Source: Candidatus Curtissbacteria bacterium RIFCSPHIGHO2_12_FULL_41_17
GTDB taxonomy: Bacteria; Patescibacteriota; Microgenomatia; Curtissbacterales; GWA2-41-24
Assembly: GCA_001774945.1 (NCBI GenBank)
Contig: MFBL01000043.1
Coordinates: forward strand, 2,782 to 66,781
DNA length: 64,000 bases
Reading direction: 5' to 3'
Of the stretch, positions 11,719 through 34,777 are shown in pieces. Made by a program: the position numbers and the translations under genes. Within the stretch, counting starts at the first letter, position 1. The number at the start of each line of letters is the position of its first letter. The notes below the pieces were generated by a model. It worked only from the letters and a program-made list of their open reading frames with translations. It did not search any database and had not been told where the DNA came from.

Positions 11719-13613
11719 TGAAATTAATCAGAGCCAATTTTCTCATTATTACCATCTTTTTCGGTGTATTAATTACTCTCAGTCTTCCGCATATATTCCG
11801 CTATCTTGCACTCGGTTCAAAATACACGACGCTCATCATAAGCGGGCCATCAGCAACTGCGACAAGCTGGGAAGAAACTTATACTTACGCAACGGAAGCA
11901 AACAGAATTAAAAACAACCAGCCAATCAATGACCCGTATATTTATGAATACAGAAACAAGCCTTCTCCATTAATCTCCGAATTAGTTCCGTCTGTTCTTT
12001 TGGGAGTACCCGCCAAAGTATTATCAACATCTTTAGTTTTTATACTGGCAAAAATCTTCGTTTTACCGCTTACAATTTTCGTATGGTACCTTATAGCCAG
12101 ACAACTTGGCTATTCAAAAAAAGCCAGTATTTGCGCAGCCCTAACAAGTTTTATCTTACAGAAGCTTTTTGTCTACATTCCATATTTTCCTAAAATATTC
12201 TCTTACGAATTTGATGGCTACCTTGAAGCCCAAAGAATTTATTTTCCCCTGATATCCTCGTTTATTACATCAATCACTATCTTATTTATTTTAAAAATTC
12301 TGGATAATAGATTCCCACGGCCTAAAGGCCGTGGTTCTCTAGTCTTCGCTCAAAATTCGCTTCATCTTCGGCAGATACAGTGCCATGCGGTCCTCGTCCT
12401 TCGGACTGCGGGCCTAAAATGCTGGAGTTTTTTCGCTCAGAATAAAAAAATGAAGTATGTACTATTAGCCGGAATATTACCGGGCTTACTTTTTTATACC
12501 TACTTTTTTGCATGGACCTTAATTTGGTCGTCACTAATATTATTTTTAATCAGTTTGAAAATATCCGGCTGGCACATCCAGGCAAAAAAATTACTTGCTG
12601 TTCTGGCAGTTGGATTATTAATCGGCCTTCCTTATTTTCTAAACTTACTGTTCTTTTATCAAAATCCATCGAGAAGCGATTTCATTTTAAGGACCATAAG
12701 TTTCCCAATAATTGATTGGAATATACCGATAATATTCAGGTTTTTGACATTTTTTTGTTTGATTACTTTTTTTGGTAAAAAATGGTTAAAAAGTCCCGAC
12801 AAAAGATTATTAATCTTAATCTACTTAACGGCGGCATTTTTGCCCTTAGTCTCAAAAATAATTTTTCAGGCGGATAACCAAACAGACCATTGGTACGAGC
12901 GTTTCTTATACCCATTATCAACCTTTTTACTTGTTCTTTTTGCGGCCGACATAAAACAACTAGGCCTCAAAATCAAAAATTTTATTTTTCTGGCATTTTT
13001 ACTTTTGGCAATTCTGAAGTTTGATATTAGTATTTACAACGAGATCAAAAGACCATCCGAATATTTCACAATTGGTCTACCCCGACTAGATCTTTATCAT
13101 TGGATGGCCAAAAATCTGCCAAAAAACAGCGTAGTTGGATCACTAAGTTTTAAGGAAGAAATCTATTTGACGGCATACACGCCTCTCTATGCTTATCTGC
13201 CTCAAGCATACAAAACAATAGCGCCGACAAAAGAAATTACGGATAGATATTTATTTCTGGCTCGCCAAATCGGTGTTGGTCCCGAATTTATAAAACAAGT
13301 CTTTATCATGCCCGACCAGTCTTACAGTAACCCTGATTCAATTCAGGCAAAGGACGGTAACGGCTTTATGGTTCTTCTCGGTATCGCCAACCATTTCGAC
13401 AAGTTTCCATACCCGTCTCACTACAAAATACAACAAGATTTAGTCCAGTCGCTCAACAAATCGATAAATCAAATCGGCCGTCTTGATTATTTATTGATAG
13501 GCCCATTAGAAAGAGAAGCATCTCCAGATTTTGCCAAAAACACCAAATGCCAGCTTATATTCCAAAATGTCACATACAAACTCTACCGCTTCCACAATTG
13601 TTCTGTCCGGTAA
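11718..13613 (+). CDS. Large polytopic membrane protein of unknown function. It contains an atypical GC-rich in-frame insert at ~12312-12433.
   Basis: A 631-aa ORF with many hydrophobic helices. The internal segment RFPRPKGRGSLVFAQNSLHLRQIQCHAVLVLRTAGLKCWSFFAQNKK is basic and non-hydrophobic, and its codons are GC-rich, unlike the flanks. Confidence 0.4.
   Translation: MKLIRANFLIITIFFGVLITLSLPHIFRYLALGSKYTTLIISGPSATATSWEETYTYATEANRIKNNQPINDPYIYEYRNKPSPLISELVPSVLLGVPAKVLSTSLVFILAKIFVLPLTIFVWYLIARQLGYSKKASICAALTSFILQKLFVYIPYFPKIFSYEFDGYLEAQRIYFPLISSFITSITILFILKILDNRFPRPKGRGSLVFAQNSLHLRQIQCHAVLVLRTAGLKCWSFFAQNKKMKYVLLAGILPGLLFYTYFFAWTLIWSSLILFLISLKISGWHIQAKKLLAVLAVGLLIGLPYFLNLLFFYQNPSRSDFILRTISFPIIDWNIPIIFRFLTFFCLITFFGKKWLKSPDKRLLILIYLTAAFLPLVSKIIFQADNQTDHWYERFLYPLSTFLLVLFAADIKQLGLKIKNFIFLAFLLLAILKFDISIYNEIKRPSEYFTIGLPRLDLYHWMAKNLPKNSVVGSLSFKEEIYLTAYTPLYAYLPQAYKTIAPTKEITDRYLFLARQIGVGPEFIKQVFIMPDQSYSNPDSIQAKDGNGFMVLLGIANHFDKFPYPSHYKIQQDLVQSLNKSINQIGRLDYLLIGPLEREASPDFAKNTKCQLIFQNVTYKLYRFHNCSVR
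12312..12433. other. GC-rich structured element (possible small RNA or miniature insertion) embedded in-frame in the ORF.
   Basis: The span is roughly 50-60% GC against a ~33% background. There is a perfect 8-bp hairpin ccacggcc-taaa-ggccgtgg (12315..12334). A second hairpin gtcc-ttc-ggac lies at 12396..12406. A T6 run follows at 12428..12433. Confidence 0.3.
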
Positions 13614-13689: not shown

Positions 13690-14784
13690 ATGATTCCCGT
13701 TATTGACCTGAAAATTACGGAAAAGCAAAACAGAGCGATAAAAAAACGCGTTTCAAAAGTCATAGATTCCAGGTCTTATATTTTGGGAAAAGAGCTTGAT
13801 GCTTTCGAAAAAGAATTCGCCAAAATCACTAAGGTAAAAAAAGCCATTGGGGTAGGTAATGGTACCGACGCCCTGAGACTTTCTCTTAGAGCTTTGGGTA
13901 TTGGCGCCGGTGACAAGGTTTTAACAGTGTCTCTCACATCGCCTTTTACAGCTATTGCCATAATAGAAGAAGGGGCGGTACCGGTTTTTTGCGATGTGGA
14001 CGAAAATACATGGACAATTGATCCTCGCGACATCATCAAACGGATAGACAAAAAAGTGAAAGCCATCATTCCTGTGCATCTTTATGGCAATCCGTCAGAC
14101 ATGAAATCAATAAATAAAATCGCAAAAAAATTTAATCTAAAAGTCGTAGAAGATGCCTGTCAAGCCCATTTGGCTCAAATAGATAATATTTTAGTTGGAA
14201 ACTGGGGAGATGCAGCAGCCTTTAGTTTTTACCCGACAAAAAATCTCGGCGCGATGGGTGATGCCGGAGCGGTAGTAACCAATAACGGCCAGCTTGCAAA
14301 GCACATTAGAATTTTAAGACATGGCGGTCAAACAAAAAGGTTTTGGCATGCGTACAGTGGGTTCAACAGCAGGCTTGATGAAATTCAAGCGGCAGTTTTA
14401 AGAGTAAAATTGAAATCACTAAAAAAACACAACACCAGCAGGTCAAAAATTGCTCGCACATACAAACAAGAATTAGCGAATCTCCCGATTTCATTTCAGC
14501 AAGCAGTTATTGGCGGAAAATCGGCAAACCACTTATTCGTGATAAGAGTAAAGCAGCGCGATAAGTTACATAAATATTTGCTCCAAAACGGGGTCGCAAG
14601 CGACATATATTACCCTTACCCGGTCCACGTCCAACCGGCATTTAAGAAGTTTTCGTCAGGCAGTCTGCCAATCACCGAAAAACTTACAAAAGAGTTGCTC
14701 GCTCTGCCATTTTATCCGAATCTCTCTGCGCCGGACCAGAAAAGGGTAATTCGAGCGATAAAAAGTTTCTTTAAAAATAACTAG
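13690..14784 (+). CDS. DegT-family PLP-dependent sugar aminotransferase.
   Basis: Carries FSFYPTKNLGAMGDAGAV with the PLP lysine. The N-terminal region (ILGKELDAFEKEFA...DKVLTVSLTSPFTAIA) fits the family. Confidence 0.8.
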   Translation: MIPVIDLKITEKQNRAIKKRVSKVIDSRSYILGKELDAFEKEFAKITKVKKAIGVGNGTDALRLSLRALGIGAGDKVLTVSLTSPFTAIAIIEEGAVPVFCDVDENTWTIDPRDIIKRIDKKVKAIIPVHLYGNPSDMKSINKIAKKFNLKVVEDACQAHLAQIDNILVGNWGDAAAFSFYPTKNLGAMGDAGAVVTNNGQLAKHIRILRHGGQTKRFWHAYSGFNSRLDEIQAAVLRVKLKSLKKHNTSRSKIARTYKQELANLPISFQQAVIGGKSANHLFVIRVKQRDKLHKYLLQNGVASDIYYPYPVHVQPAFKKFSSGSLPITEKLTKELLALPFYPNLSAPDQKRVIRAIKSFFKNN

Positions 14785-14831
14785 ATTCTCTGTGAATGAA
14801 GTATATTCTGTGCTAGAATTAGCTTCAACTC

Positions 14832-15809
14832 ATGCGTGTAAAACAAAAAATAATTGGAGTCACCGGTGCAGCCGGTTTCATTGGTAGTCATTTATGCGAG
14901 AAATTATTAAATAATGGTTACAAAGTAATAGCTGTCGACAATTTGTCAAAAGGCAGTAAAAATAACATACGAGATTCCCTGAAAAACAAGAGTTTTAATT
15001 TTTTTAAGGCTGACATAAGCAATCCAAAAACAGCAAGGAAGTCATTTGCCAACGTAGACGGTGTTGTCCATCTAGCTGCCTCTAAAATCCCAAGGTACGG
15101 AGGAAGGCTGGAAACTTTACTTGTAAACACCGAGGGAACAAAAAATATCTTAGAGGCGATAAAAAATAAGAAATCAAAGTTCATCTTTGCTTCGACGCCA
15201 GATGTCTACGGCAAAAACCCCAAAATACCATTTTCGGAAGACAGTGATCTTACTGTCGGTTCACCGGAGGTGGCAAGATGGGCCTATGCGGCTTCTAAAA
15301 TTTTTGACGAGCATCTTTGTTTTGGGTATTGGGAAGAATATAAAGTTCCTTTTGTCATTCTACGTCTATTTGGAGTTTATGGTCCGCGTCAGCACAGAAG
15401 CTGGTGGGGAGGGCCGCAAGCGCTTTTTATAGACAAGATCATAGCCGGAAAAGAAATTGAGATCCATGGTGATGGTCACCAGACAAGAACTTTTATTTAT
15501 ATCGATGATGTTGTTGAAGCACTCATTAAATCTATATCGTCCGAAAAAGCGAATAACCAAATAATTAACATCGGTACAACGCATGAAATTTCCATTATCG
15601 AACTTGGAAAATTAATTTCTAAACTTCTCCAAAAACCGCTCAAGATTAAAAAAGTACCGTATCGGTCTTTTACAGGCAAGAAATATGAAGATGTGAGAAG
15701 AAGGACTCCGACAATTAAAAAAGCTAAAGAGTTATTAAATTGGGAGCCAAAAGTCTCATTGGCTGAAGGACTTAAAGAAACAATAAGTTGGCACTTAAAA
15801 ACTAAATGA
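14832..15809 (+). CDS. UDP-glucuronate decarboxylase / UDP-xylose synthase-like SDR (ArnA C-domain-like).
   Basis: Carries GVTGAAGFIGSHL, YAASK and DGHQTRTFIYIDDVVEAL, which resembles the UXS signature G-x-Q-T-R-S-F-x-Y-V-x-D. Confidence 0.65.
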   Translation: MRVKQKIIGVTGAAGFIGSHLCEKLLNNGYKVIAVDNLSKGSKNNIRDSLKNKSFNFFKADISNPKTARKSFANVDGVVHLAASKIPRYGGRLETLLVNTEGTKNILEAIKNKKSKFIFASTPDVYGKNPKIPFSEDSDLTVGSPEVARWAYAASKIFDEHLCFGYWEEYKVPFVILRLFGVYGPRQHRSWWGGPQALFIDKIIAGKEIEIHGDGHQTRTFIYIDDVVEALIKSISSEKANNQIINIGTTHEISIIELGKLISKLLQKPLKIKKVPYRSFTGKKYEDVRRRTPTIKKAKELLNWEPKVSLAEGLKETISWHLKTK

Positions 15810-16537
15810 TTTACTTTCTAATTCCCTCTTTTAACGACTGTGAAAACTTTGCCGATTTGCTTAAAAATATTGCAAAGACCATAAAGCGCCAGAGATATAA
15901 AGTAACTATTGTCAACGACGGCTCTACAGATAAAACAAAGCAGGTTATAAAGGAGCTTTCAAAGAAATATCCGGTCACAATGATTGGCTATGATAAAAAC
16001 AGAGGACCGGGATACGCTTTTAAATTTGGTTTTAATTATTTAATCCCAAGACTCAAAGCCGATGATTTAGTAATAACTATGGAGGCGGACAACACTGCAG
16101 ATTATTTTATTCTTAAAAGAATGATTCAAGAATCCAATAACTTCGATGTGATACTAGCATCACCATATTCCGGGGCAGGGGCTTTTTTAGGCATAAATTT
16201 ACAAAGAAAAATTTTAGGACACGTTGCCAGTATTTTAGATCGCTTTATCTTTAGATTAAAAAACATTAAAACGTACTCGTCATTTTATAGAATTTACAGG
16301 GTAGCGATTCTTAAAAAGGCGAAAAAAGTATATGGTGATAAATTCATTACCGAAGATGGCTTTTCGTCTGTTATAGAGATTTTGATCAAGCTTGCAAAAG
16401 TTGACGCAAAATTTACCGAAGTTCCAGCAGTCGTTGACTGGAGGAGTCGGAAGGGTAAAAGCAAAATGAAAATTACAAAAACAATAACTCGCCATCTAAG
16501 ATTATACCAAGAATATCTTCAAGGAAAATATAACTAA
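15806..16537 (+). CDS. GT2 polyprenyl-phosphate sugar synthase (DPM1/ArnC-like, soluble form).
   Basis: Has the VTIVNDGSTDKT motif, and MEADNTADY provides the DxD-like region. Its start overlaps the upstream stop (ATGA). Confidence 0.6.
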   Translation: MIYFLIPSFNDCENFADLLKNIAKTIKRQRYKVTIVNDGSTDKTKQVIKELSKKYPVTMIGYDKNRGPGYAFKFGFNYLIPRLKADDLVITMEADNTADYFILKRMIQESNNFDVILASPYSGAGAFLGINLQRKILGHVASILDRFIFRLKNIKTYSSFYRIYRVAILKKAKKVYGDKFITEDGFSSVIEILIKLAKVDAKFTEVPAVVDWRSRKGKSKMKITKTITRHLRLYQEYLQGKYN

Positions 16538-17589
16538 TGAAAACGAAAATAGTTTCAATAGTTGGTGCGAGACCGAATCTTATTAAATTGGCAGCTTTAC
16601 ATCCTAGACTTCGCAAAGATTTCAACCATATCATAATCCATACAGGACAGCATTATGATTTAGAGCTTTCAAAACATTTTTTCGATGAGCTGGATATTCC
16701 AGAGCCCAACTATAATCTACATGTCGGCTCAGCGACTCATGGAATCCAAACAGCTAGAATCCTTTCTGGATGCGAAAGGATTCTACTGACTGAAAAGCCC
16801 TTTACTGTCTTGGTCTATGGGGATACAAATTCGACATTGGGAGGGGCTCTAGCTGCTGCAAAATTGCGTATCCCGACTGTGCACATTGAATCCGGGATGA
16901 GAAGTTACGATCGGTCAATGCCCGAAGAGATAAATAGAGTAATTACGGATCATATTTCATCATTATTATTGTGTCCTTCTGCTTCTGCTGCCAAATTTCT
17001 TAAAAAAGAAGGAATTACCAAAAACGTATTTTTTACTGGCGACGTTATGTACGATATTTTTTTAAAAATTAAGCCCAACCATCTGGTTTTGAAAAGATTT
17101 AATTTGAAGCCCAAAAGTTACTATTTTGCAACTGTCCATCGCCAAGAAAATACAGACAACCTTCAACGTCTTCGTCAAATATTTAATATTTTTGAAGCTT
17201 TAGATAGACCAGTTATTTTGCCAATCCATCCCAGAACTAGGAAAGCTCTTTCTCGAATTAAAATAAGTCTAAAAAATACTAAACTTGTAGAACCTGTCAA
17301 ATTTTCCGATAATATTGCCCTTGAACAGAATTCTTCGGTGATATTGACAGATTCTGGCGGCATTCAAAAAGAAGCCTATTGGTTAAGAATTCCCTGTCTG
17401 ACTCTACGAAATACTTCGGAATGGCTCGAAACAGTTAAAAGCGGGTGGAATCATATTACGGATTTAGATAGTGAACTTATCTTAAAATATACGACACAAA
17501 GGGTTAAACAATCTAAAACACACCCCCAATATTATGGAAAGGGCGATTCTGCTAAAAAGATAATCGATGTCATCAAGAAATGGCTATGA
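16537..17589 (+). CDS. UDP-N-acetylglucosamine 2-epimerase (WecB/WbpI family).
   Basis: Carries IVGARPNLIKLAAL, HTGQHYD and HIESGMRSYDRSMPEEINRVITDH, all family hallmarks. Confidence 0.8.
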   Translation: MKTKIVSIVGARPNLIKLAALHPRLRKDFNHIIIHTGQHYDLELSKHFFDELDIPEPNYNLHVGSATHGIQTARILSGCERILLTEKPFTVLVYGDTNSTLGGALAAAKLRIPTVHIESGMRSYDRSMPEEINRVITDHISSLLLCPSASAAKFLKKEGITKNVFFTGDVMYDIFLKIKPNHLVLKRFNLKPKSYYFATVHRQENTDNLQRLRQIFNIFEALDRPVILPIHPRTRKALSRIKISLKNTKLVEPVKFSDNIALEQNSSVILTDSGGIQKEAYWLRIPCLTLRNTSEWLETVKSGWNHITDLDSELILKYTTQRVKQSKTHPQYYGKGDSAKKIIDVIKKWL

Positions 17590-19403
17590 TAATTTGCGAT
17601 TTTGATGGTACAATTATTGACCCGTCGGAGAGACTTTACAAGGTTTATTCAAATTGCTGTTCTCTTCTTAAAATTAAACCATTATCTCAAAAAAGATTTA
17701 TAAATCTTAAAAGGTCAGGAAAGTCCGAAGTTGAGTTCATTAGTCCAGTAAAAGCTAGGGAAAAATACAGAAAAATTTTCAAGGAAAAAATAGAAGAAAA
17801 AAAATATTTAAGGTTGGACAGAATTTATCAATATGCAAAAGATTTCCTTGAGGATAATTATAAAAAAAATGAAATATTTTTAATGACTAATCGGCAAAAT
17901 AGAAAAAATCTGTTTTGGCAACTAGATTATTTGGAAATTAGAAAGTTCTTTCAAAAAATTATTCTTGCAAAAGAAGCAAACAAAAGTCTTCAATTTCTTA
18001 AATCACGGCATTTATACTTTATTGGTGACACAGAATTGGATATTAAGTTAGGGAGGAAATTATCTGCTTTCACAATTGCTGTAGACTATGGATTAAGAAC
18101 AAGGCGTTATTTGAAAAATTTTAAACCAGATAAAATTGTTTCCTTCCTCAAAGATATTAAATTTCCTACAGAAGACGTATTCATTCTTAAGACTTTGAAT
18201 AAAGGTCTTCAGCAGGTTAGAGATAGGACGGTTTTCATAGATTTGAGTAAAGAGCCTAGCCTATATGATTTGTTTAGAGTATTAAGAAAACAGCCTAAGA
18301 TGGTATTGATTAACGGGAAAGGATTTGTTGATCATTATGCCGTATTAGCGTCAGAGTTTGGGATTCCGCTAATTCCCGTACTTAAAAAAGATTCGCAAAG
18401 CGTCTTAAAGGTTTCCTCCCATACTATTCCAATTAAAAATAGTCATGTTATGGATCAAGACTCACAAGGCCAGCTTAAAACTGCTTCTAAATTAAAAATA
18501 AACCTTGGCAATAGCGAAATTCTTAAAAAATACCCTGAATTAGTTGAACTTAGCGACGGCATTGGTTTTTTGAGGACAGAATTTATACTTCTTTCTGTTC
18601 TAGAGGGTTTACATCCACAGTACTTTATCGATAAATTCGGGAAAAAGACATTGATAAAAAAATTCACAGTTGAAATGCTAAAGATAGTTTCAAAGTTCGA
18701 CAAAAAAAATAAACCGGTTTGGATACGTACGAATGATTTTTCAACAGATGAACTAAGACTGTTTAAATACGGAAATAGGTTCGAGAAAACGGAGCCTAAC
18801 CCCGCTCTTGGTTTCAGAGGAATAAGAAGAACTCTTGATGAGAAATTCTTATTAGAGGTAGAACTATCCGTATTCGATAATCTAATTAAAAATGGTATTA
18901 AAAATCTTGGCGTTTTTCCACCAATGGTTAGGTTCCCTGATGAATTCATTTCATTTGAAAAGATCATAAAAGAAAGATTTAAACATAAACTAAAGATAGG
19001 GTTGATGGTTGAAACGCCAGCTATTGCTCTGGCCTTTCACAACATAGTTAAAAAACTTGACTTTATGATATTTGGGTCCAATGATTTAACTCAATTCACT
19101 TTAGCTCTTGATAGGCAAAACCCGAATCTGGCGAAGTATTTCGATGGGAGAAATGAGTCGGTTATGTTCCTTTTCAATATCGTGATCGATTTGTGCAACA
19201 AGTTTAATGTCGAATCTTTCATTGGTGGTCAAGCTGCGAATGATTGGGAAACGGCCAAATTACTATTAAAACTTGGCATTTCCGGACTTTCTGTTTCACC
19301 TGACCCTTCTAGCTTTTCTAGAATGAGGGGCCTGATCTATAAATGGGAAAATAAACATAGTTTTTCTGTGAGTAAGCCAAGCTTTTCTGTGAATAAAAAA
19401 TGA
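17580..19403 (+). CDS. Fusion protein: N-terminal HAD-superfamily hydrolase domain plus a PEP-utilizing enzyme phospho-His swivel domain and a PEP/pyruvate-binding TIM barrel (Enzyme I / pyruvate phosphate dikinase (PPDK) / PEP synthase-like).
   Basis: HAD motifs are DFDGT (I), MTNR (II) and GDTELD (IV). The central VDHYAVLASEFGIPLIPV resembles GGRTSHAAIIARELGIPAV of Enzyme I (catalytic His). The C-terminal GIGFLRTEFILL and FGSNDLTQFTLALDR match PtsI GLFRTEFLYM and IGTNDLTQYTLAVDR. Confidence 0.65.
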   Translation: MAMIICDFDGTIIDPSERLYKVYSNCCSLLKIKPLSQKRFINLKRSGKSEVEFISPVKAREKYRKIFKEKIEEKKYLRLDRIYQYAKDFLEDNYKKNEIFLMTNRQNRKNLFWQLDYLEIRKFFQKIILAKEANKSLQFLKSRHLYFIGDTELDIKLGRKLSAFTIAVDYGLRTRRYLKNFKPDKIVSFLKDIKFPTEDVFILKTLNKGLQQVRDRTVFIDLSKEPSLYDLFRVLRKQPKMVLINGKGFVDHYAVLASEFGIPLIPVLKKDSQSVLKVSSHTIPIKNSHVMDQDSQGQLKTASKLKINLGNSEILKKYPELVELSDGIGFLRTEFILLSVLEGLHPQYFIDKFGKKTLIKKFTVEMLKIVSKFDKKNKPVWIRTNDFSTDELRLFKYGNRFEKTEPNPALGFRGIRRTLDEKFLLEVELSVFDNLIKNGIKNLGVFPPMVRFPDEFISFEKIIKERFKHKLKIGLMVETPAIALAFHNIVKKLDFMIFGSNDLTQFTLALDRQNPNLAKYFDGRNESVMFLFNIVIDLCNKFNVESFIGGQAANDWETAKLLLKLGISGLSVSPDPSSFSRMRGLIYKWENKHSFSVSKPSFSVNKK

Positions 19404-20476
19404 AAATGAAGATTTTAATAACAGGAGCAGGTGGTAGCGCCTCGATAGGACTTACACGTTGCCTAAAAAATTATTTTCCTAAGGCTAAAATTATCGGTGT
19501 AGAGTCAGATTTATTCAATTCAGCATTATCAGAAACAAATAGTACGTATCTTATCCCGCGGGCCAGTGACAAGGATTATATTAAGGTGCTCAACCATATA
19601 ATTCTAAAGGAGAAAATAGATTTTTTATATCCTCAAACCGATTCTGAAATTTCAGCTATAGCAAAGAATATTAGAAAAATTCAGTGTAAGACACTAATCC
19701 CTTCCTTTAAAATCATTTCAACTTGTCAAAACAAATATAAACTCAATAAACACCTATTTGCAAAAGGAATTCCTGTTCCCAAGACCATTCTTATAAAAAC
19801 ATCCAGTGACCTAAAAAATGCCACCAAGTATAAACTTTTTTGGCTAAGAAATGTTACAGGTGCCGGTGCAAAGGGCGCGTTTTTGGCGGAAAATTTTGAA
19901 CAAGCAATCTGGTGGATAAATTTTCAAAATGGTTGGGGCCACTTTACCGCATCAGAATACATGCCTGAGGATAACTATGGATGCGATTTACTTTTTGCTG
20001 GGGGGAAGCTCGTCTTCTCTCAAATCAAAAGGAGACTTGAGTATGTACTCTCAAAAGCAAACATCGTAGGAATAACTGGAACCACGGGCATTCTCGAGAC
20101 TGTCTCAACAAAATTCGACCTCAATGATATTTCTGAAAGAGCAGTGACTCTACTTGATAACAATATTTCAGGCGCTTTCTCAGTTGATATAAAGTGTGAC
20201 TCACTTTCAAAACCATATGTGACAGAGATAAATCCAGGAAGATTTCTATCATCCTCGATGCATTTATTCGCAGAAACTAAATTTCCTGCTCCCGCATTAG
20301 TAATTCTTGTTGCAAACGACCAAAAATTACCCTCTTTTCCCAAAAGAAATCCAATAAAAGGTGGTACCATCCTGATAAGACAACTAGATCGTAAGCCAGC
20401 GACAGTAAATCTGAAAAATCACAACAGATTAAGAAAAAAGTTTGAAAGAAAACATTATGTCAAATTAGAAACATGA
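19400..20476 (+). CDS. ATP-grasp domain protein (carbamoyl-phosphate-synthase-like ligase/kinase fold).
   Basis: Has an N-terminal Rossmann-like ILITGAGGSASIGL pre-ATP-grasp region. The central block KHLFAKGIPVPKT...GAGAKGAFLAENFEQA is ATP-grasp-like. It overlaps the upstream gene by 4 bp. Confidence 0.5.
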   Translation: MKMKILITGAGGSASIGLTRCLKNYFPKAKIIGVESDLFNSALSETNSTYLIPRASDKDYIKVLNHIILKEKIDFLYPQTDSEISAIAKNIRKIQCKTLIPSFKIISTCQNKYKLNKHLFAKGIPVPKTILIKTSSDLKNATKYKLFWLRNVTGAGAKGAFLAENFEQAIWWINFQNGWGHFTASEYMPEDNYGCDLLFAGGKLVFSQIKRRLEYVLSKANIVGITGTTGILETVSTKFDLNDISERAVTLLDNNISGAFSVDIKCDSLSKPYVTEINPGRFLSSSMHLFAETKFPAPALVILVANDQKLPSFPKRNPIKGGTILIRQLDRKPATVNLKNHNRLRKKFERKHYVKLET

Positions 20477-21459
20477 TCAAGATTGCAGTTATCGGCCTAG
20501 GGTATATGGGGCAGGGGCACGTCCGAGTGCTTTCTTCACTATCAGAAGTTGATATAGTTGCAGTCTGCGATAAGGATTTTCAAAAAACAGAAAAAATATC
20601 AAAACAGTATAGAGTGAAACCGTACCGAAACTTTAAAAAACTTTTAAAAGAGGAAGAACTAGATGCTATCTCAATTTGTCTCCCCACATCGCTTCATTTC
20701 ATAGTTGCATCAAATGCAGCCAAAAAAGGAATTGCACTTTTTATCGAAAAACCAATATGTTCTAATTCCAAAGAAGCTAAGAAACTAATTGAGCTCGCTA
20801 GGTTTAAAAAAACTCCAATAATGGTGGGCCACATCGAAAGATTTAATCCAGTAGTCAACGAAATTAAACAGAGGATTAAATTAGGAGAGCTAGGGAGAAT
20901 CTTGCAAATTCATACCCAGAGATTTTCTCCCCCACCCGCAAGGGCATTCGACGTTTCTGCGGTTGTGGATTTAGCAACCCATGACATCGACATCATTCAA
21001 TATCTTCTTGACCAAAAACCCGTCAGAATTTACGCAGAGACTGACAACAAAGCTCACAGAAAAGAGGATTTAATGGCAGCGATTTTGAGGTTTAAAAATG
21101 GTGTAATCGGACTCGTTGAAGTGAGTTGGCTACATCCGACAAAAATTAGAAGGTTAACAGTTTTAGGTGAGAATGGAATGTATGTAGCAGATTATATTAC
21201 TCAAGAACTATTTTTTTACAGACAAAACGAGAATCTATTCAGAAAAAATAATATTTCTCCGACTACTCCTATTACACAAGCAGATATTGTCAAAATAGCC
21301 TTTCAAGCAAAAGAACCTCTTGAAATAGAACTCGAATCTTTTATTCAGGAACTTCTATCCGGGGCAAAGATGTCTGTCACAGCTGAAGATGGCTTAGTTG
21401 CTCTAACCTTGGCGGAGAAAATGATTAATTCTGGAACTTTCCATAAAGTTTTAAAATGA
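20473..21459 (+). CDS. Gfo/Idh/MocA-family NAD(P)-dependent oxidoreductase (WbpB-like sugar 3-dehydrogenase candidate).
   Basis: Carries IKIAVIGLGYMGQGH at the N-terminus and EKPICSNSKEAKKLIELA, the EKP motif of the family. Confidence 0.7.
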   Translation: MIKIAVIGLGYMGQGHVRVLSSLSEVDIVAVCDKDFQKTEKISKQYRVKPYRNFKKLLKEEELDAISICLPTSLHFIVASNAAKKGIALFIEKPICSNSKEAKKLIELARFKKTPIMVGHIERFNPVVNEIKQRIKLGELGRILQIHTQRFSPPPARAFDVSAVVDLATHDIDIIQYLLDQKPVRIYAETDNKAHRKEDLMAAILRFKNGVIGLVEVSWLHPTKIRRLTVLGENGMYVADYITQELFFYRQNENLFRKNNISPTTPITQADIVKIAFQAKEPLEIELESFIQELLSGAKMSVTAEDGLVALTLAEKMINSGTFHKVLK

Positions 21460-22733
21460 ATGCTGCGGTAATCGGATTAGGTTATGTAGGGCTACCACTT
21501 TCTATCAGGCTTGCTCAAACCGGTTTTGGAGTACTTGGTATTGATAAAGATCAAAAGAAGATTGAACTTTTAGGAAAAAATTTACTTCCTTTCGGTCTGA
21601 GAGAACCAAATTTGTTGAGTTTTTTTAAGCAAGCTCAAGTGAGTAAAAATTTAAAATTCACATCAACTTATGAAGAGATAAAAGATGTTGATATCATTTT
21701 CATCAGTGTTGATACACCAGTTGAAAAAAGACAACCAGATATCGCTTCTTTATTAGCGGCCACTAAGAGCATTGCAAAACATTTAAAAAAAAATCAGATA
21801 ATTGTCATTGAATCTACAGTTGCACCCAAAACAACTCAAGATTTAATTATTCCCCTACTTGAGAAGCTATCAAAGTTGAAGTTAAATCGAGACTTTTTCG
21901 TTGCGGTTGTTCCAGAAAGAATCCGTCCTAATTATATTTTTAAACAACTGACAACCTTGCCTAGAGTGATTGGAGTATCTGATCTTAGAATTAAGAAAGA
22001 ACTAAGAATAATTTATTCAAAAATAACTACTGGGAAGCTAAATTTTACAGACTTGGCTACCGCCGAAGTTGTCAAAACAGTAGAAAATGCCTATCGGGAT
22101 GTTAATATCGCCTTTGCCAATGAGATAGCACTTGCTTGCGAAGATCTAGGGGTAGACGTATGGAAAATCAGAGAACTTGTCAATAAGTCACCATGGCGAG
22201 ATATGCATAAACCAGGATCAGGGGTTGGCGGGCACTGCATTCCAAAAGATCCATGGCTTTTAGCGTCTTCTGTCAAAAAACACCAAATGAGGTTAATTGA
22301 AACAGCCAGAAGCATAAATGATAATATGCCTGCGCACATTTTTGCATTAGCGGAAGAAGCGCTCAAAGAAAAGAAAATCAAAATTGCCAGTGCAAATCTT
22401 GCCATACTCGGTTATGCATATGTTGGCAATTCAGACGACACCAGAAATTCTCCAACTGAATCGTTAATACAAATCCTAAAGAACAAAAAAGTTAAATATA
22501 AGGTTCATGACCCATACGTCAAAGATTTTTCAAATCACTCTGTAGAGATGACAGCAAAAGGGGCAGACGTTTTAATTATCATGGTAAACCATGACGTATA
22601 TAAAAAAATCAATTATAAAAAAGTTGCGAAAGTAATAAAAACGAAAATTATCATTGATGGCCGGAACTTGGTGCCGGCCGAACTTGTCAGAAAGTTGGGT
22701 TTTGTCTATAAGGGTGTTGGAAACACCAGTTAA
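21456..22733 (+). CDS. Nucleotide-sugar 6-dehydrogenase (UDP-glucose/GDP-mannose dehydrogenase family; WecC/WbpA-like).
   Basis: Carries MNAAVIGLGYVGLPLSIRLAQ, GVGGHCIPKDP with the catalytic Cys, and a C-terminal UDP-binding domain. Confidence 0.8.
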   Translation: MNAAVIGLGYVGLPLSIRLAQTGFGVLGIDKDQKKIELLGKNLLPFGLREPNLLSFFKQAQVSKNLKFTSTYEEIKDVDIIFISVDTPVEKRQPDIASLLAATKSIAKHLKKNQIIVIESTVAPKTTQDLIIPLLEKLSKLKLNRDFFVAVVPERIRPNYIFKQLTTLPRVIGVSDLRIKKELRIIYSKITTGKLNFTDLATAEVVKTVENAYRDVNIAFANEIALACEDLGVDVWKIRELVNKSPWRDMHKPGSGVGGHCIPKDPWLLASSVKKHQMRLIETARSINDNMPAHIFALAEEALKEKKIKIASANLAILGYAYVGNSDDTRNSPTESLIQILKNKKVKYKVHDPYVKDFSNHSVEMTAKGADVLIIMVNHDVYKKINYKKVAKVIKTKIIIDGRNLVPAELVRKLGFVYKGVGNTS

Positions 22734-23872
22734 TGAAAAAATATTTTCTATTAGGACTGCTTATAAAATTCCTCTTTGTAGTCTTTACTTTTCACTTGGA
22801 CACCTTATTTATTTGGGAAAGACCGGCACATTTTATTCAAAATTTACATACAATCAGTTCCTATTACGGGCCGTTAACATACATTACCTTCGGTATGCTT
22901 TCACCGATTTATTTCCTAAGCCAGAACATCGGGTATTGGATATTAAAAATCCCTTACTTGTTTGTGGACATTTATATACTTTATTTATTGTTGAAAATGT
23001 CACCTAAAGCTATTCATAAAAAGGTCCTTGTCTTTTGGTGGCTGAACCCCATTGTCATATTCTCGACGTATGCGATGGGGCAATTAGACATAATTTTATC
23101 TTTGTGCGTGGTGCTTTCCGTGTATGTTGCCAAGAGACACCATGTCTTTTCAATCTTATCTCTTGGAGCAGGTGTGGCATATAAAACAATGACCCTGCCG
23201 CTTCTTATTTCCTCATCACTAATTCTAGAAAAAAATTTAGTTAAAAGGATTGAAATGATAGCAATCGGGATATCTGTGCCACTGTTACTTGGGATACTAT
23301 TCTGGTTACCCTCGCACCAAAATATTTCAAATACCTATTTTCCAACAGGCATTATTTTCTATCCCAAATTGTCAATGACCCCGGACGCCATTTGGGAATA
23401 TTCGAGTTTATTTATAGGAATAATCGGCTTTTTTGCAGTCCAATACCTGCTGATTAAAAAGAAAATAGACATTTCTAATTTTGCGCACGTATTATTCGTC
23501 TCGCTTGCGTTCGTTATAATTGCCCTACCCATCTACTCGGTTTTTAGATATACGATATTAATGCCATTACTGGTACTCGTTTCATTAAAAGTGAAAAAAG
23601 CCTTAGTGCTAGCACTTATTCTAATTTTGCTGCCGCTTGGTTATCTATACATTTGGCCTCTCGAGTGGGGCTTAATCGCCCATATTTACCCTCAGGCTAA
23701 AAATTTACCGGCACTGCGCGAATGGGTTTCCCTAGTGGTAAATTACGAAAATGCAGCATTTTTATTCAGAGTTATTGCTGATAGCCTGATTTTCTATTTG
23801 GCAATCATATCACTTAAAAAAACGTTCCATCATAAAACTTTATCCAATCAAATAAGTGGCAACCATATTTAA
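22733..23872 (+). CDS. Polytopic membrane protein, possible GT-C/DUF2029-like glycosyltransferase or polymerase.
   Basis: Has about ten hydrophobic helices and no soluble domain. The family assignment is uncertain. Confidence 0.3.
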   Translation: MKKYFLLGLLIKFLFVVFTFHLDTLFIWERPAHFIQNLHTISSYYGPLTYITFGMLSPIYFLSQNIGYWILKIPYLFVDIYILYLLLKMSPKAIHKKVLVFWWLNPIVIFSTYAMGQLDIILSLCVVLSVYVAKRHHVFSILSLGAGVAYKTMTLPLLISSSLILEKNLVKRIEMIAIGISVPLLLGILFWLPSHQNISNTYFPTGIIFYPKLSMTPDAIWEYSSLFIGIIGFFAVQYLLIKKKIDISNFAHVLFVSLAFVIIALPIYSVFRYTILMPLLVLVSLKVKKALVLALILILLPLGYLYIWPLEWGLIAHIYPQAKNLPALREWVSLVVNYENAAFLFRVIADSLIFYLAIISLKKTFHHKTLSNQISGNHI

Positions 23873-25373
23873 ATACCAACTAACACTTTTAATTTTTCTC
23901 CTACTGCTGTGGAACATCTTCATGCCGATTTTTGAAGGTGCTGATGAAGAAGGCCATTTTTGTTCAGCCGACTACATTGCTCATAAAAATAAGTTACCAA
24001 ACTTGCTGATAAATGACGGTTGCTTTATATGGCATCCTCCCTTGTACTATCTTTATCTTTCTCCATTCATTAGATTATTTCACACGCCACAGCATACACC
24101 TTTTGATGTCAAAGAAAACCCCAAAGCATTCTTATTAAGAAAGGGGCAGTACGCCCAGTACGTTCATACGAAAAAAGAGATGACATTCAGATGGAATACT
24201 CTTCAGCTTATGGTACATGTGCTTCGCTTATTGACCTCATTTTTTGCCGTTTTAATATTTATCATTACCTGGAAAGCTGCCAGAAATATCTTTTCCGAAA
24301 AGTTAGCCCGGAATTTGTCTTTGCTTCTATTCTTTAACCCAATGTTTATTCATATATTCACGACATTAACAAACGTGACACTAGTAAGTTTAATCGCAAC
24401 AGTGGTGATCTTGATAGATCTTGCGCATGCAAAAGAGTCTAAAAGCCTAAAAGTCGTATTTATCCAAGGCCTGTTAATAGGTTTTGGTTACATTACAAAG
24501 ATTACTATTTTGTCTTTAATTCCCGTCTGGCTTATTTTAATGATTGTTGAACAGCATAAGTTTAAATACTCGTTAAGGTTACTTATCGGCAAAGTTTCCA
24601 TTTTTACAATTGGGTTTGCTTTAAGTGCCGGTTGGTATCTTGCCAGGAATTTAATGCTTTACGGCAATATTCTGGAAGTAAATGCACTGGCAAAAACATA
24701 TGGGGCAAGTGCCCACGATTTACTGCTGGAGCGTGTCGGCCTTTTAAATTATTTAAACAGCATTGCACTGACACTATTTAAAACCTTTTGGTCCGGCTAT
24801 GGATATTTAACAATAAGATTTCCCGAATTTGTGAACCTACCTTTGCTCATAGTTTTGTTATTAATAATTTATACAATCTATGTGAATTACAAAAAACTGA
24901 ACCGGGAATTAACAATTGCCCTTATTTACGCAGTCGGTGTGATTGGGGGTCTGGTCATTATGAACTTTAGGCTTTCCGCAATGCACGCAAAGGACCTTTT
25001 CCCTGCTTATATGCCTCTTGCGCTATTGTTTGGATACGGCTTGTTTCATGCTAAAGACACCATCAAGAAAGGCCGTTTACGATTTTTTACAATTGTAAGT
25101 TTAATTCTCGGTTCCTATCTTTTTGCGCAAGTGGAAATTGTAAAATTATTAAAGGCATTGTTTCAATTTCAGTGGGCTCCGGTAGTACCTCTTCTTTTGG
25201 CAATAGCTATAAAAACCGTTCTTGTTTTCGCGCTTGTTAAAATTGTTGTGAGCTTCATAGGTAAGGCGAAATTTGACCCAAAAAGCGTTGTTGTTCTTAC
25301 ATACCTCATTGCAATATTTGACATTTTCATCCTATTTTCAAGCGTTTATCTGTTATACAAAAGCTTCATTTAA
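23856..25373 (+). CDS. GT39-like (protein O-mannosyltransferase/ArnT-like) GT-C glycosyltransferase.
   Basis: The first loop, FEGADEEGHFCSADYIAHKNKLPNL...WHPPLYYL, resembles the PMT DE(x)HF...HPPL motif. The rest is polytopic. Confidence 0.55.
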   Translation: MATIFKYQLTLLIFLLLLWNIFMPIFEGADEEGHFCSADYIAHKNKLPNLLINDGCFIWHPPLYYLYLSPFIRLFHTPQHTPFDVKENPKAFLLRKGQYAQYVHTKKEMTFRWNTLQLMVHVLRLLTSFFAVLIFIITWKAARNIFSEKLARNLSLLLFFNPMFIHIFTTLTNVTLVSLIATVVILIDLAHAKESKSLKVVFIQGLLIGFGYITKITILSLIPVWLILMIVEQHKFKYSLRLLIGKVSIFTIGFALSAGWYLARNLMLYGNILEVNALAKTYGASAHDLLLERVGLLNYLNSIALTLFKTFWSGYGYLTIRFPEFVNLPLLIVLLLIIYTIYVNYKKLNRELTIALIYAVGVIGGLVIMNFRLSAMHAKDLFPAYMPLALLFGYGLFHAKDTIKKGRLRFFTIVSLILGSYLFAQVEIVKLLKALFQFQWAPVVPLLLAIAIKTVLVFALVKIVVSFIGKAKFDPKSVVVLTYLIAIFDIFILFSSVYLLYKSFI

Positions 25374-30354: not shown

Positions 30355-30357
30355 TTA

Positions 30358-31602: not shown

Positions 31603-31603
31603 A

Positions 31604-34769: not shown

Positions 34770-34777
34770 AAGCTTTA

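What the first reader, a model, noticed from the sequence alone, without database searches (positions are those of the whole stretch)
17580..20476. HAD phosphatase fused to an Enzyme-I/PPDK-like phospho-His phosphotransferase, coupled to a stand-alone ATP-grasp protein
ORF 17580..19403 combines three parts not normally found together.

- It has an N-terminal HAD hydrolase domain (DFDGT, GDTELD).
- It has a central PEP-utilizing swivel domain with a candidate catalytic His (VDHYAVLASEFGIP).
- It has a C-terminal PEP/pyruvate TIM barrel (GFLRTEFILL, GSNDLTQFTLALDR).

It lacks both the HPr-binding domain of Enzyme I and the nucleotide-binding ATP-grasp domain of PPDK/PEP synthase. An ATP-grasp protein is instead encoded immediately downstream (19400..20476) with a 4-bp overlap, which suggests translational coupling.

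This looks like a split, rewired PEP synthase/PPDK-type phosphotransfer machine with a built-in phosphatase, embedded in a nucleotide-sugar operon. The nearest functional precedents are specialised members of this family such as rifampin phosphotransferase and the Campylobacter L-glutamine kinase Cj1418 of the MeOPN capsule-modification pathway. A reasonable hypothesis is PEP- or ATP-driven phosphorylation of a sugar or small-molecule substituent, followed by dephosphorylation or transfer.
Basis: partly seen in the sequence, partly recalled or inferred. Interest (0 to 1): 0.8.

Follow-up and report, generated by a model that had tools for sequence, protein, structure and literature searches.

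The report
HAD-fused PEP phosphotransferase in sugar-decoration operon
A real and very rare fusion of a phosphatase to a cut-down PEP-synthase-like enzyme, from an uncharacterised enzyme clade, sits with a ligase in a conserved gene set that probably attaches a phosphorylated small molecule to an amino sugar and then removes the phosphate.

Summary
ORF 17580..19403 encodes a HAD phosphatase, a phospho-His swivel domain (His252) and a PEP-binding TIM barrel. It overlaps a ligase-type ATP-grasp gene (19400..20476) by 4 bp.

New findings:
- The swivel+TIM part belongs to a small clade that is monophyletic (100/100 bootstrap) and appears undescribed: about 20 clusters among 1.84 billion representative proteins.
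- The clade keeps the His and all PEP/Mg ligands. It replaces the proton-donor Cys of EI, PPS and PPDK with Gly, and T-S-H with x-D-H.
- Only two clusters carry the HAD fusion.
- An unfused version exists (L173): PEP-utilizer, ATP-grasp, HAD, plus a UDP-GlcNAc-3-dehydrogenase-like gene and a DegT aminotransferase.
- The ATP-grasp+HAD pair also occurs without the PEP-utilizer.
- The PEP-utilizer also occurs without the ATP-grasp, beside nucleotidyltransferase and CDP-alcohol phosphotransferase genes.

Best reading (inferred, not shown): a PEP-driven, His-mediated kinase makes a phosphorylated small molecule. The ATP-grasp ligates it to the amino sugar, and the HAD removes the phosphate.

Verdict: new variant of a known kind; interest about 0.65.

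The parts
17580..19403 (+). Fusion protein (607 aa): HAD phosphatase + phospho-His swivel domain + PEP-binding TIM barrel. It belongs to the 'GG' clade of truncated PEP-synthase-like proteins.
17580..18170 (+). HAD domain (residues ~1-197). The nucleophile Asp7 lies in D-F-D-G-T (17598-17606). Motif IV is G-D-T-E-L-D.
   Evidence: Pfam HAD_2, E 1.8e-10. Motifs checked. It is 31-33% identical (E 1e-24 to 1e-28) to stand-alone HADs encoded just after orthologous ATP-grasps in L011, L012 and L173.
18171..18470 (+). Diverged swivel (mobile) domain. The candidate phospho-His252 is encoded at 18333-18335 and is preceded by Asp251 (an x-D-H motif instead of T-S/C-H).
   Evidence: Aligned to PEP synthase from residue ~236. 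His is invariant in 17 of 17 family members. PF00391 is hit by 9 of 17 members. Signature changes are listed.
18471..19304 (+). PEP/pyruvate-binding TIM barrel (residues 298-575). R332, E334, R383, D386, E478, N501, D502 and R512 are kept. Gly549 (19224-19226) replaces the proton-donor Cys.
   Evidence: Pfam PF02896, E 1e-46. Alignments. Motif scan of 154 proteins. Foldseek match to 8a8e, TM 0.90.
19400..20476 (+). Ligase-type ATP-grasp protein (358 aa), with an ATGA overlap onto the fusion gene.
   Evidence: Pfam PylC-like_N + ATP-grasp_3. AF2 pLDDT 94. Foldseek top hits are 2pn1, biotin carboxylase, RizA, PurK, PurD, PylC and Ddl. Family alignment A5 shows invariant K112, E186, D263 and E276.
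20473..21459 (+). GFO/IDH/MocA oxidoreductase, UDP-GlcNAc 3-dehydrogenase-like. Conserved module partner.
   Evidence: NCBIfam NF040723, 293 bits, which is below the equivalog cut-off of 450. It is 39% identical to the GFO next to the unfused module in L173.
13690..14784 (+). DegT/DnrJ/EryC1 sugar aminotransferase. Conserved module partner that would make the sugar amine.
   Evidence: Pfam E 1e-109. It is 38% identical to the DegT of L173. A DegT also lies beside the ATP-grasp+HAD pair in L011, L012 and L175.
16537..17589 (+). Non-hydrolysing UDP-GlcNAc 2-epimerase (WecB). Its stop codon overlaps the start of the fusion gene.
   Evidence: TIGR00236, 277 bits against a cut-off of 210. A WecB C-terminus also precedes the fusion in L001.
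21456..22733 (+). UDP-sugar 6-dehydrogenase (UDP-ManNAc/UDP-Glc dehydrogenase family).
   Evidence: Three UDPG_MGDP_dh Pfam domains. The same gene follows the GFO in L009 and L010.
14832..16537 (+). SDR epimerase/dehydratase (14832-15809) and GT2 glycosyltransferase (15806-16537) in the same operon.
   Evidence: The same pair is found upstream in L009.

Best explanation
The locus encodes a glycan-decoration module.

1. A UDP-GlcNAc-3-dehydrogenase-like oxidoreductase and a DegT aminotransferase make an amino sugar nucleotide. WecB and a 6-dehydrogenase take it towards a 2,3-diamino-mannuronic-type sugar.
2. The swivel+TIM part of the fusion takes the phosphoryl group of PEP onto His252. It passes it to a small acceptor bound in the same TIM-barrel site (ping-pong). 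This yields a phosphorylated building block X-P.
3. X is most likely a pyruvate-like 2-hydroxy acid such as glycerate or lactate. Loss of the Cys that protonates C3 of enolpyruvate frees space there, and no enolisation is needed on the acceptor side.
4. The ligase-type ATP-grasp joins X-P to the sugar. This is most likely N-acylation of the new amine. Less likely, it amidates the uronate with an amine-phosphate.
5. The HAD domain then hydrolyses the phosphate.

The fusion therefore joins the first step (phosphate on) and the last step (phosphate off) of one pathway.

Shown here: domain composition, conserved residues, clade membership and gene-neighbourhood conservation.
Inferred: every catalytic step, the donor, the acceptor and the order of steps.
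For: (1) Domains and catalytic residues are present.

(2) The clade is distinct.
- It is monophyletic 100/100 against the 45 nearest canonical PPS/EI sequences.
- The Cys is replaced by Gly (Val or Ser in two members) in all members, whereas 44 of 45 canonical sequences keep Cys.
- Substitutions at EI C502 strongly impair EI activity, and Cys-502 is the residue named for transition-state protonation (PMC13598208, citing Garcia-Alles 2003).
- His and the PEP/Mg ligands are invariant at a mean identity of 39% within the clade. This argues for a live active site.

(3) There is a Rosetta-stone relationship. L173 encodes PEP-utilizer (35% id), ATP-grasp (43%) and HAD (32%) as three coupled genes, beside GFO (39%) and DegT (38%).

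(4) The ATP-grasp+HAD pair is conserved in 8 of 9 lineages. It usually sits with DegT and/or GFO, and lacks a uronate dehydrogenase in L012, L173 and L175.

(5) There is no WbpD-type acetyltransferase in the 13690-25373 operon.

(6) Clade members without an ATP-grasp sit with NTP_transferase + CDP-alcohol phosphotransferase (L013, L095) or with AsnB + NTP_transferase (L014). In those loci they occupy the position a kinase would hold in a Lic-type pathway. Both contexts need a phosphorylated small molecule.

(7) Precedents:
- The C. jejuni Cj1438C amidoligase uses serinol-P or ethanolamine-P, and the HAD Cj1435 then removes the phosphate (PMC11800379).
- Phenylphosphate synthase is a split PPS homolog that phosphorylates a non-pyruvate OH via His~P, and its alpha subunit alone exchanges phenol with phenylphosphate (PMC6114531).
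- N-glyceroyl 2,3-diaminoglucuronic acid and D-glyceramide 2-phosphate both exist in natural glycans (PMC11407970, PMC6222762).
Against: - No biochemical data exist for any clade member.
- Without the Cys, phosphotransfer from PEP may be slow or may need another proton donor, so PEP as donor is not secure.
- 2-PG and 3-PG are central metabolites, so a dedicated enzyme to make them seems unnecessary. The acceptor may be something else.
- Four lineages have ATP-grasp+HAD without the PEP-utilizer, so X-P can come from elsewhere.
- Two clade members sit beside ordinary kinase-like genes (APH family in L178; APS-kinase-like in L176). That weakens the argument that the PEP-utilizer replaces a kinase.
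- The HAD part of the AF2 model is poor (pLDDT below 50 over large stretches), so domain geometry could not be used.
- Most contexts are short metagenomic contigs.
Confidence: 0.45

Rival explanations
1. Split, rewired PEP synthase/PPDK. The ATP-grasp protein acts as the nucleotide-binding domain. It uses ATP to (pyro)phosphorylate His252. The TIM barrel then phosphorylates pyruvate or an analogue, and the HAD trims the product.
For: - PylC-like ATP-grasp genes of two different subfamilies sit next to clade members in at least five independent lineages: window/L009, L001, L173, L176, and L002/L003.
- The PPDK/PPS N-domain is itself an ATP-grasp fold (established knowledge).
- Phenylphosphate synthase shows that a PPS homolog can work as separate subunits (PMC6114531).
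Against: - The ATP-grasp matches carboxylate-amine ligases by sequence and by fold. It does not match PPDK_N.
- The same ATP-grasp family occurs with a HAD but no PEP-utilizer in L011, L012, L174 and L175.
- Clade members occur without any ATP-grasp in L013, L014, L095 and L178.
- The Cys needed for pyruvate/enolpyruvate interconversion is missing.
Confidence: 0.15
2. His-to-Asp phosphorelay. The HAD domain occupies the position N-terminal to the swivel domain, where EI, PPS and PPDK carry their second active site. His252~P would phosphorylate the HAD nucleophile Asp7. The HAD would then act as a PEP-driven phosphotransferase (kinase or mutase) rather than a phosphatase.
For: - Domain order is HAD-swivel-TIM.
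- The DxD motif is intact.
- HAD enzymes form aspartyl-phosphate intermediates, and some (phosphomutases) transfer the phosphate to substrates (established knowledge).
Against: - Orthologous HADs are separate genes placed after the ATP-grasp in L173, L011, L012 and L175. In three of these loci no PEP-utilizer is present.
- L002 has a metallophosphoesterase in place of the HAD. That enzyme type is not known to form a phospho-enzyme intermediate (established knowledge).
- Only 2 of about 20 clade clusters carry the fusion.
Confidence: 0.1
3. PEP itself, or another central phospho-acid, is the ATP-grasp substrate. The swivel+TIM domain does not make X-P. Instead it removes or recycles an enol-phosphate (for example from an N-phosphoenolpyruvoyl intermediate, giving an N-pyruvoyl sugar), or it locally interconverts PEP and pyruvate.
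For: - The PEP/Mg ligands are fully conserved.
- ATP-grasp+HAD pairs work without the PEP-utilizer in several lineages, so the ligase substrate may be a common metabolite.
Against: - The carboxylate-binding arginines are retained. This suggests a free-acid substrate rather than an amide.
- The role would be redundant with the HAD.
- It does not explain the nucleotidyltransferase/CDP-alcohol-transferase contexts.
Confidence: 0.1
4. Catalytically dead PEP-binding module. Loss of the Cys and of the T-S-H motif marks a pseudoenzyme, which serves as a PEP sensor or scaffold for the ligase/phosphatase pair.
For: - Cys549 is replaced by Gly, and T-S-H is replaced by x-D-H.
- The swivel domain falls below Pfam detection in this protein.
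Against: - His252 and eleven PEP/Mg-site residues are invariant across a clade with only 27-50% identity to the query.
- The replacements themselves are conserved (D251 in 85% of members, G549 in 90%). That is the signature of a changed function, not of decay.
Confidence: 0.1

Closest known systems
PEP synthase (PpsA), especially archaeal-type PPS (PDB 8a8e, 9dae, 2ols)
   Same: - Best sequence and fold match for the swivel+TIM region: 33-36% identity, TM 0.90 on the PEP-binding domain.
- Same phospho-His position and the same PEP/Mg ligands.
   Different: - No PPDK_N nucleotide domain.
- NCBIfam PEP-synthase models score 190-200 bits against cut-offs of 598-740.
- The proton-donor Cys is replaced by Gly, and T-S/C-H by x-D-H.
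- A HAD domain is fused at the N-terminus.
- It sits in a glycan operon, not in a gluconeogenic context.
PTS Enzyme I
   Same: A swivel His domain followed by a PEP-binding TIM barrel. PEP would be the direct phosphoryl donor, with no nucleotide involved.
   Different: - No HPr-binding domain (PF05524).
- Lower identity (~22-27%).
- The equivalent of Cys502 is missing.
Phenylphosphate synthase (Thauera aromatica PpsABC)
   Same: A PPS homolog that phosphorylates a non-pyruvate hydroxyl group through a phospho-His. It is split into separate subunits. The His-bearing subunit alone catalyses acceptor/phospho-acceptor exchange (PMC6114531).
   Different: - It uses ATP through a PPDK_N-type beta subunit.
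- Its acceptor is phenol, in a catabolic pathway.
- It has no HAD and no ligase-type ATP-grasp.
- Sequence relationship to the clade described here was not tested.
C. jejuni Cj1438C amidoligase + Cj1435 HAD phosphatase (glucuronamide decoration of the capsule)
   Same: The pathway logic is the same. An ATP-grasp ligase attaches a phosphorylated small molecule to a sugar, and a HAD phosphatase then removes the phosphate (PMC11800379).
   Different: - Cj1438C is a TupA-like ATP-grasp, not PylC-like/ATP-grasp_3.
- Its phospho-amines come from DHAP or phosphoserine via PLP enzymes, not from a PEP-utilizing enzyme.
- It acts on a uronate carboxylate. Here the conserved partner is an aminotransferase.
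Cj1418 L-glutamine kinase and rifampin phosphotransferase
   Same: Specialised members of the swivel-His family that phosphorylate unusual acceptors. In Cj1418 the product is then cytidylylated, which parallels the NTP_transferase contexts of L013, L095 and L014.
   Different: They have a PPDK_N-type ATP-grasp, use ATP, and lack the PEP-binding TIM barrel (established knowledge). The protein studied here has the TIM barrel and lacks PPDK_N.

Membership tests
PEP-utilizing enzyme superfamily (PPS/PPDK/EI) | C-terminal PEP/pyruvate-binding TIM barrel (PF02896) with conserved Arg/Glu/Asn-Asp PEP and Mg ligands | tested here: met
   PF02896, E 1e-46. R332, E334, R383, D386, E478, N501, D502 and R512 are invariant across 40 sequences that include EI and PPS. 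Foldseek TM 0.90 to 8a8e.
PEP-utilizing enzyme superfamily (PPS/PPDK/EI) | Mobile (swivel) domain PF00391 carrying the phospho-accepting His | tested here: met
   This protein has no PF00391 hit at E<=0.01. It does align to PPS models and to 2ols from residue ~236. His252 is invariant. 9 of 17 clade members hit PF00391, best E 1e-9.
PEP-utilizing enzyme superfamily (PPS/PPDK/EI) | Active-site Cys (EI C502 / PPDK C831) that protonates enolpyruvate | tested here: not met
   Gly549 occupies that column. It is Gly in 18 of 20 clade members (Val and Ser in the other two), against Cys in 44 of 45 canonical sequences.
PEP synthase / PPDK proper | N-terminal PPDK_N nucleotide-binding ATP-grasp domain (PF01326), and a score above the equivalog cut-off | tested here: not met
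   No PF01326 hit. NF005057 scores 199.6 bits against a cut-off of 598. TIGR01418 scores 190 against 740.
PTS Enzyme I | N-terminal HPr-binding domain (PF05524), and a score above the TIGR01417 cut-off | tested here: not met
   No PF05524 hit. TIGR01417 scores 118 bits against a cut-off of 342.
HAD-superfamily phosphatase | Motif I DxDx[TV], motif IV [GS]Dxx[xD]D and the Rossmannoid core; Pfam HAD_2 above the gathering score | tested here: met
   D7-F-D9-G-T and G-D-T-E-L-D are present. HAD_2 scores 41.7 bits against 23.8. Phosphatase activity itself cannot be tested here.
ATP-grasp carboxylate-amine ligases (PylC / CPSase-like) | Pre-ATP-grasp domain + ATP-grasp fold with conserved Lys and acidic/Asn Mg ligands | tested here: met
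   PylC-like_N, E 3e-11, and ATP-grasp_3, E 3.5e-7. Invariant K112, E186, D263 and E276, and near-invariant N278. AF2 pLDDT 94, with Foldseek hits to 2pn1, biotin carboxylase, RizA, PurK and PylC.
   No PF01326 hit. No PPS or PPDK chain among 92 PDB profile hits, of which the best 60 were shown. None in the Foldseek top 50 either.
Cj1438C/Cj1435-type amidoligase-phosphatase pair | TupA-like ATP-grasp amidoligase acting with a HAD phosphatase on a phospho-amine adduct | tested here: inconclusive
   The HAD partner is conserved in 8 of 9 lineages. The ATP-grasp belongs to a different Pfam family (PylC-like/ATP-grasp_3). Substrates cannot be tested with these tools.
PEP mutase / phosphonate pathway | ICL/PEPM-family PEP mutase | tested here: not met
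   No PEP_mutase hit on the fusion protein or on any of the 49 window ORFs scanned against Pfam.

The most novel reading that the evidence does not exclude
The 'GG' clade is a new enzyme class within the PEP-utilizing superfamily. Its members would be stand-alone PEP:small-molecule phosphotransferases, that is, nucleotide-independent, phospho-His-mediated kinases working ping-pong in one TIM-barrel site. They would feed phosphorylated building blocks into glycan decoration by two routes. One route is ATP-grasp ligation followed by HAD dephosphorylation (this window). The other is NDP-activation followed by CDP-alcohol-type phosphotransfer (Parcubacteria, an unassigned metagenomic contig (L095) and, without the transferase, SAR11). 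In the fusion, the swivelling His may additionally communicate with the HAD aspartate.
Probability: 0.35. Interest if true: 0.8.

Novelty: new variant of a known kind. Interest (0 to 1): 0.65.

Why it matters
If the reading is right, PEP-utilizing enzymes are not limited to pyruvate (PPS/PPDK) or a protein (EI) as the partner of the phospho-His. That would add a nucleotide-free kinase chemistry to glycan tailoring.

It would also assign a role to a recurrent but unannotated ATP-grasp+HAD gene pair. That pair sits next to sugar aminotransferases in bacterial and archaeal surface-glycan loci.

It would predict a new N-acyl or amide substituent on a 2,3-diamino uronic acid.

The clade-wide loss of the catalytic Cys, with every other ligand retained, is a clean natural experiment on the mechanism of this enzyme family.

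Tried and rejected
Searches that added little or nothing:
- The third word-indexed homolog search, run with the clade alignment, returned no new members.
Together they added four clade loci from three distinct genes: L013 (with the identical L093/L094), L014 and L095.
- Literature searches found nothing for a PEP-utilizing enzyme together with ATP-grasp, cytidylyltransferase or polysaccharide clusters. No description of this clade or module was found in the held library.
- The first NJ bootstrap script timed out. It was redone with faster code.

Analyses that could not be done:
- The AF2 model of the fusion could not be used for inter-domain geometry.
- The window has no tRNA or marker genes, so the organism was not identified.
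- The best genome-collection relative is a Parcubacteria MAG at 41% identity over the swivel+TIM region only, which says nothing about the window's taxon.

Readings rejected:
- Phosphonate (PEP mutase) pathway: no such family is present.
- Ordinary gluconeogenic PEP synthase: scores are far below the cut-offs, there is no N-domain and no Cys.
- Assembly-artefact fusion: the fusion is conserved at 50% identity in an independent contig.
- The antisense ORF 18455..18967: it lies inside the fusion gene on the opposite strand and was left uninvestigated as a probable chance ORF.

Full report
OBSERVATION.
The two ORFs are as described. ORF 17580..19403 (+) encodes 607 aa and ORF 19400..20476 (+) encodes 358 aa. 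They share an ATGA stop/start overlap. They lie inside a run of ten co-directional genes (13690-25373) whose junctions range from +47 to -17 bp.

Pfam finds HAD_2 at residues 4-168 (E 1.8e-10) and PEP-utilizers_C at residues 298-575 (E 1e-46) in the first protein. It finds PylC-like_N + ATP-grasp_3 in the second. The HAD motifs D7-F-D9-G-T and G-D-T-E-L-D are intact.

The middle region has no PF00391 hit of its own. NCBIfam PEP-synthase models and PDB entry 2ols do align from residue ~236 through GKGFVDH252YAVLASEFGIP. His252 is invariant in every alignment made. Nine of 17 family members hit PF00391.

The AF2 model has pLDDT above 90 for the barrel. The barrel superposes on the PPS C-terminal domain 8a8e at TM 0.90 and 1.8 A, and swivel+TIM aligns over ~420 columns with Enzyme I 2hwg. 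There is no PPDK_N and no HPr-binding domain.

The fusion is real. It recurs in L009, whose adjacent ATP-grasp is 90% identical, and in a 50%-identical relative (P0002/L001). Each has an orthologous ATP-grasp immediately downstream, and L001 also has a WecB upstream.

A DISTINCT CLADE.
A word-indexed search of 5.8 billion proteins found only the protein itself and one other HAD fusion. Next came three short (417-437 aa) swivel+TIM proteins at ~36% identity, and then ordinary PEP synthases at ~33%.

An exhaustive profile search of 1.84 billion representatives put about 20 clusters of 409-434-aa proteins at the top. A motif scan showed two things about exactly these proteins:
- They have I-G-G-x where PPS, PPDK and EI have I-C-G-x.
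- They have [DN]-H where the others have T-[SC]-H.

In a neighbour-joining tree of the swivel+TIM region, the 20 clade sequences separate from the 45 nearest canonical sequences in 100 of 100 bootstraps. Mean identity is 39% within the clade and 30% to the outgroup.

Clade signatures are S/C->D251, A->G253 (Tyr in this protein), R->K/N/S258, L->F330, M->F446, x->P447, S->I/V497, C->G549 and S->G569.

All PEP/Mg ligands are retained: R332, E334, R383, D386, E478, N501, D502 and R512.

The replaced Cys corresponds to EI Cys502. Substitutions there strongly impair EI, and Cys-502 is assigned to protonation of the transition state (PMC13598208, citing Garcia-Alles et al. 2003). Conserved replacement in an otherwise intact site points to a changed reaction, not to decay.

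Among 185,579 species-representative genomes, only a Parcubacteria MAG and a Pelagibacteraceae single-cell genome carry a clade member.

GENE CONTEXT.
(a) The ATP-grasp belongs to a family of ~43 clusters. In nine lineages examined:
- A HAD is next to it or fused nearby in eight: window, L009, L001, L173, L011, L012, L174 and L175. The exception is archaeal L176.
- The stand-alone HADs of L011, L012 and L173 are 31-33% identical (E 1e-24 to 1e-28) to the HAD domain of the fusion.
- DegT and/or a GFO oxidoreductase adjoin the pair in the window, L011, L012, L173 and L175.

(b) L173 carries the complete unfused module: PEP-utilizer (35% id, D-H motif, Val at the Cys position), ATP-grasp (43%) and HAD (32%) in one coupled string, with GFO (39%) and DegT (38%) alongside. 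The window's fusion is therefore a Rosetta-stone link between the PEP-utilizer and the HAD.

(c) Clade members pair with a second, distant ATP-grasp subfamily plus a metallophosphoesterase (L002) or a different HAD (L003). One pairs with an A5-type ATP-grasp in an archaeal MAG (L176).

(d) Other clade members have no ATP-grasp:
- L013 (Parcubacteria): NTP_transferase | PEP-utilizer | CDP-alcohol phosphotransferase.
- L095: CDP-alcohol phosphotransferase | NTP_transferase | PEP-utilizer.
- L014/L004 (SAR11): PEP-utilizer | AsnB-type amidotransferase | NTP_transferase.
- L178: PEP-utilizer | APH-family protein.

WHAT THE ATP-GRASP IS.
It is a classical three-domain ligase-type ATP-grasp. Profile hits in the PDB are 2pn1, PurD, PurK, biotin carboxylases, RimK/LysX, Ddl and L-amino-acid ligases. 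The AF2 model (pLDDT 94) gives the same list plus PylC, with no PPS or PPDK N-domain in the top 50. The Lys and acidic/Asn residues typical of ATP/Mg binding are invariant. It therefore most likely makes an acyl-phosphate and an amide bond. It is unlikely to pyrophosphorylate a His.

MECHANISM (INFERENCE).
Both types of context call for a phosphorylated small molecule.
- In one, it is NDP-activated and transferred as a phosphodiester. This is Lic/IPCT-DIPPS-like logic.
- In the other, it is ligated and then dephosphorylated. This is the logic shown experimentally for C. jejuni Cj1438C/Cj1435, where serinol-P or ethanolamine-P is ligated to glucuronate and the HAD Cj1435 removes the phosphate (PMC11800379).

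The only active site in the ~420-aa stand-alone clade proteins is the TIM barrel. The simplest scheme is therefore ping-pong: PEP phosphorylates the His, pyruvate leaves, and an acceptor that resembles pyruvate binds and is phosphorylated.

Several features fit an alcohol acceptor. The carboxylate and Mg ligands are retained. The C3 proton donor is lost, which makes room and removes enolisation chemistry. An Asp next to the His could serve as a base. A 2-hydroxy acid such as glycerate or lactate would fit, but this is not shown.

Phenylphosphate synthase is a precedent. It is a PPS homolog that phosphorylates a non-pyruvate OH through His~P, and its His-bearing subunit alone catalyses exchange (PMC6114531).

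In the window the amine-forming enzymes (GFO + DegT) are the conserved partners. Uronate dehydrogenases are absent from L012, L173 and L175. The operon has no WbpD-type acetyltransferase. I therefore favour N-acylation of UDP-GlcNAc3N(A) by the ATP-grasp with a phospho-acid, followed by HAD dephosphorylation. WecB and the 6-dehydrogenase would give the mannuronic form.

N-glyceroyl 2,3-diaminoglucuronic acid is known in an archaeal N-glycan (PMC11407970). D-glyceramide 2-phosphate is known in a Providencia O-antigen (PMC6222762). Such products are therefore chemically plausible. Amidation of the uronate with an amine-phosphate remains possible.

RIVALS.
The ligase-type fold, the independent occurrence of each partner and the missing Cys argue against it.
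- A His-to-Asp relay into the HAD is attractive from the domain order. It is disfavoured by unfused orthologous HADs that work without a PEP-utilizer, and by a metallophosphoesterase substitute in L002.
- A pseudoenzyme is disfavoured by invariant ligands across deep divergence.
- PEP as the direct ligase substrate, with the TIM domain as a dephosphorylating or recycling enzyme, cannot be excluded.

COMPARISON AND NOVELTY.
The protein works like a member of the PEP-utilizing superfamily and passes that family's two core tests (TIM barrel and swivel His). It fails three others: the Cys, the PPDK_N domain and the HPr-binding domain. It is far below the equivalog cut-offs for PPS, PPDK and EI.

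I found no description of the clade or of the five-gene module in the held literature. I rate it a new variant of a known kind. It is a new functional subfamily with a unique HAD fusion, embedded in a conserved and uncharacterised glycan-tailoring module.

Every catalytic assignment is inference from sequence and context. Biochemistry is needed.

CAVEATS.
- Most contexts are single short metagenomic contigs.
- The organism of the window is unknown.
- Donor and acceptor are unproven.
- The HAD region of the structural model is unreliable.

Noticed in passing
window 5769-7457, 8349-10073, 10057-11718, 23856-25373 (all +); also 11718-13613: Four paralogous PMT_2/ArnT-like GT-C membrane glycosyltransferases lie on the same strand. 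Three are in a row. They are followed by a 631-aa ORF with no Pfam hit. This is an unusual concentration of lipid-linked-sugar transferases.
   Followed up: partly
window 28018-36479 (-): A nonulosonic-acid block lies on the opposite strand: NeuB-family synthase (28542-29750), formyltransferase-like (28018-28566), class-I glutamine amidotransferase (32477-33148), GNAT (34215-34769) and CMP-NulO-synthetase-like cytidylyltransferase (34778-35482). Several Pfam-less ORFs sit among them.
   Followed up: partly
window 40853-42115 (-), 51378-53333 (-): A sugar C-methyltransferase (Methyltransf_13/14) and a 651-aa acetolactate-synthase-like TPP enzyme are present. They suggest C-methylated or two-carbon-branched sugars (YerE-like chemistry, from memory). 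At least five DegT aminotransferases are spread over the window.
   Followed up: no
L013 9067-11938; L095 8-2452; L014 144-4042: Clade members from a Parcubacteria MAG, an unassigned metagenomic contig and a Pelagibacteraceae single-cell genome are flanked by a sugar-1-P/inositol-1-P-type nucleotidyltransferase. L013 and L095 also have a CDP-alcohol phosphotransferase. The SAR11 locus has an AsnB-type amidotransferase instead. None has an ATP-grasp or a HAD.
   Followed up: partly
L176 6788-11000 (archaeal MAG GCA_046757245.1): An A5-type ATP-grasp and a clade PEP-utilizer sit in a housekeeping archaeal context (TBP, MtrH, ribosomal protein S25e). They lie next to an APS-kinase-like gene (132.5 bits against a cut-off of 138.7) and a 363-aa ORF with no family. 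No HAD is adjacent and there is no glycan cluster.
   Followed up: partly
L009 1987-2995: In L009, whose ATP-grasp is 90% identical to the window's, the position of WecB is taken by a 280-aa product with no Pfam hit, followed by a 165-bp gap. This may be a degraded or replaced epimerase gene.
   Followed up: no
L175 8725-14389 (Amycolatopsis sp. YIM 10, CP045480): The ATP-grasp+HAD pair (with GFO and DegT upstream) is followed by a 79-aa ORF, an SDR, an AMP-binding enzyme, LuxE, LuxC and an LPG_synthase_TM protein. This is a quite different downstream chemistry from the O-antigen-like loci.
   Followed up: no
window 67-1551 (+): A glycosyltransferase family 1 domain is fused to a C-terminal GNAT acetyltransferase domain in one 494-aa ORF.
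   Followed up: no
window 18455-18967 (-), 20020-20370 (-): Antisense ORFs of 170 and 116 aa lie entirely inside the fusion gene and the ATP-grasp gene. They are probably chance ORFs in AT-rich sequence.
   Followed up: no
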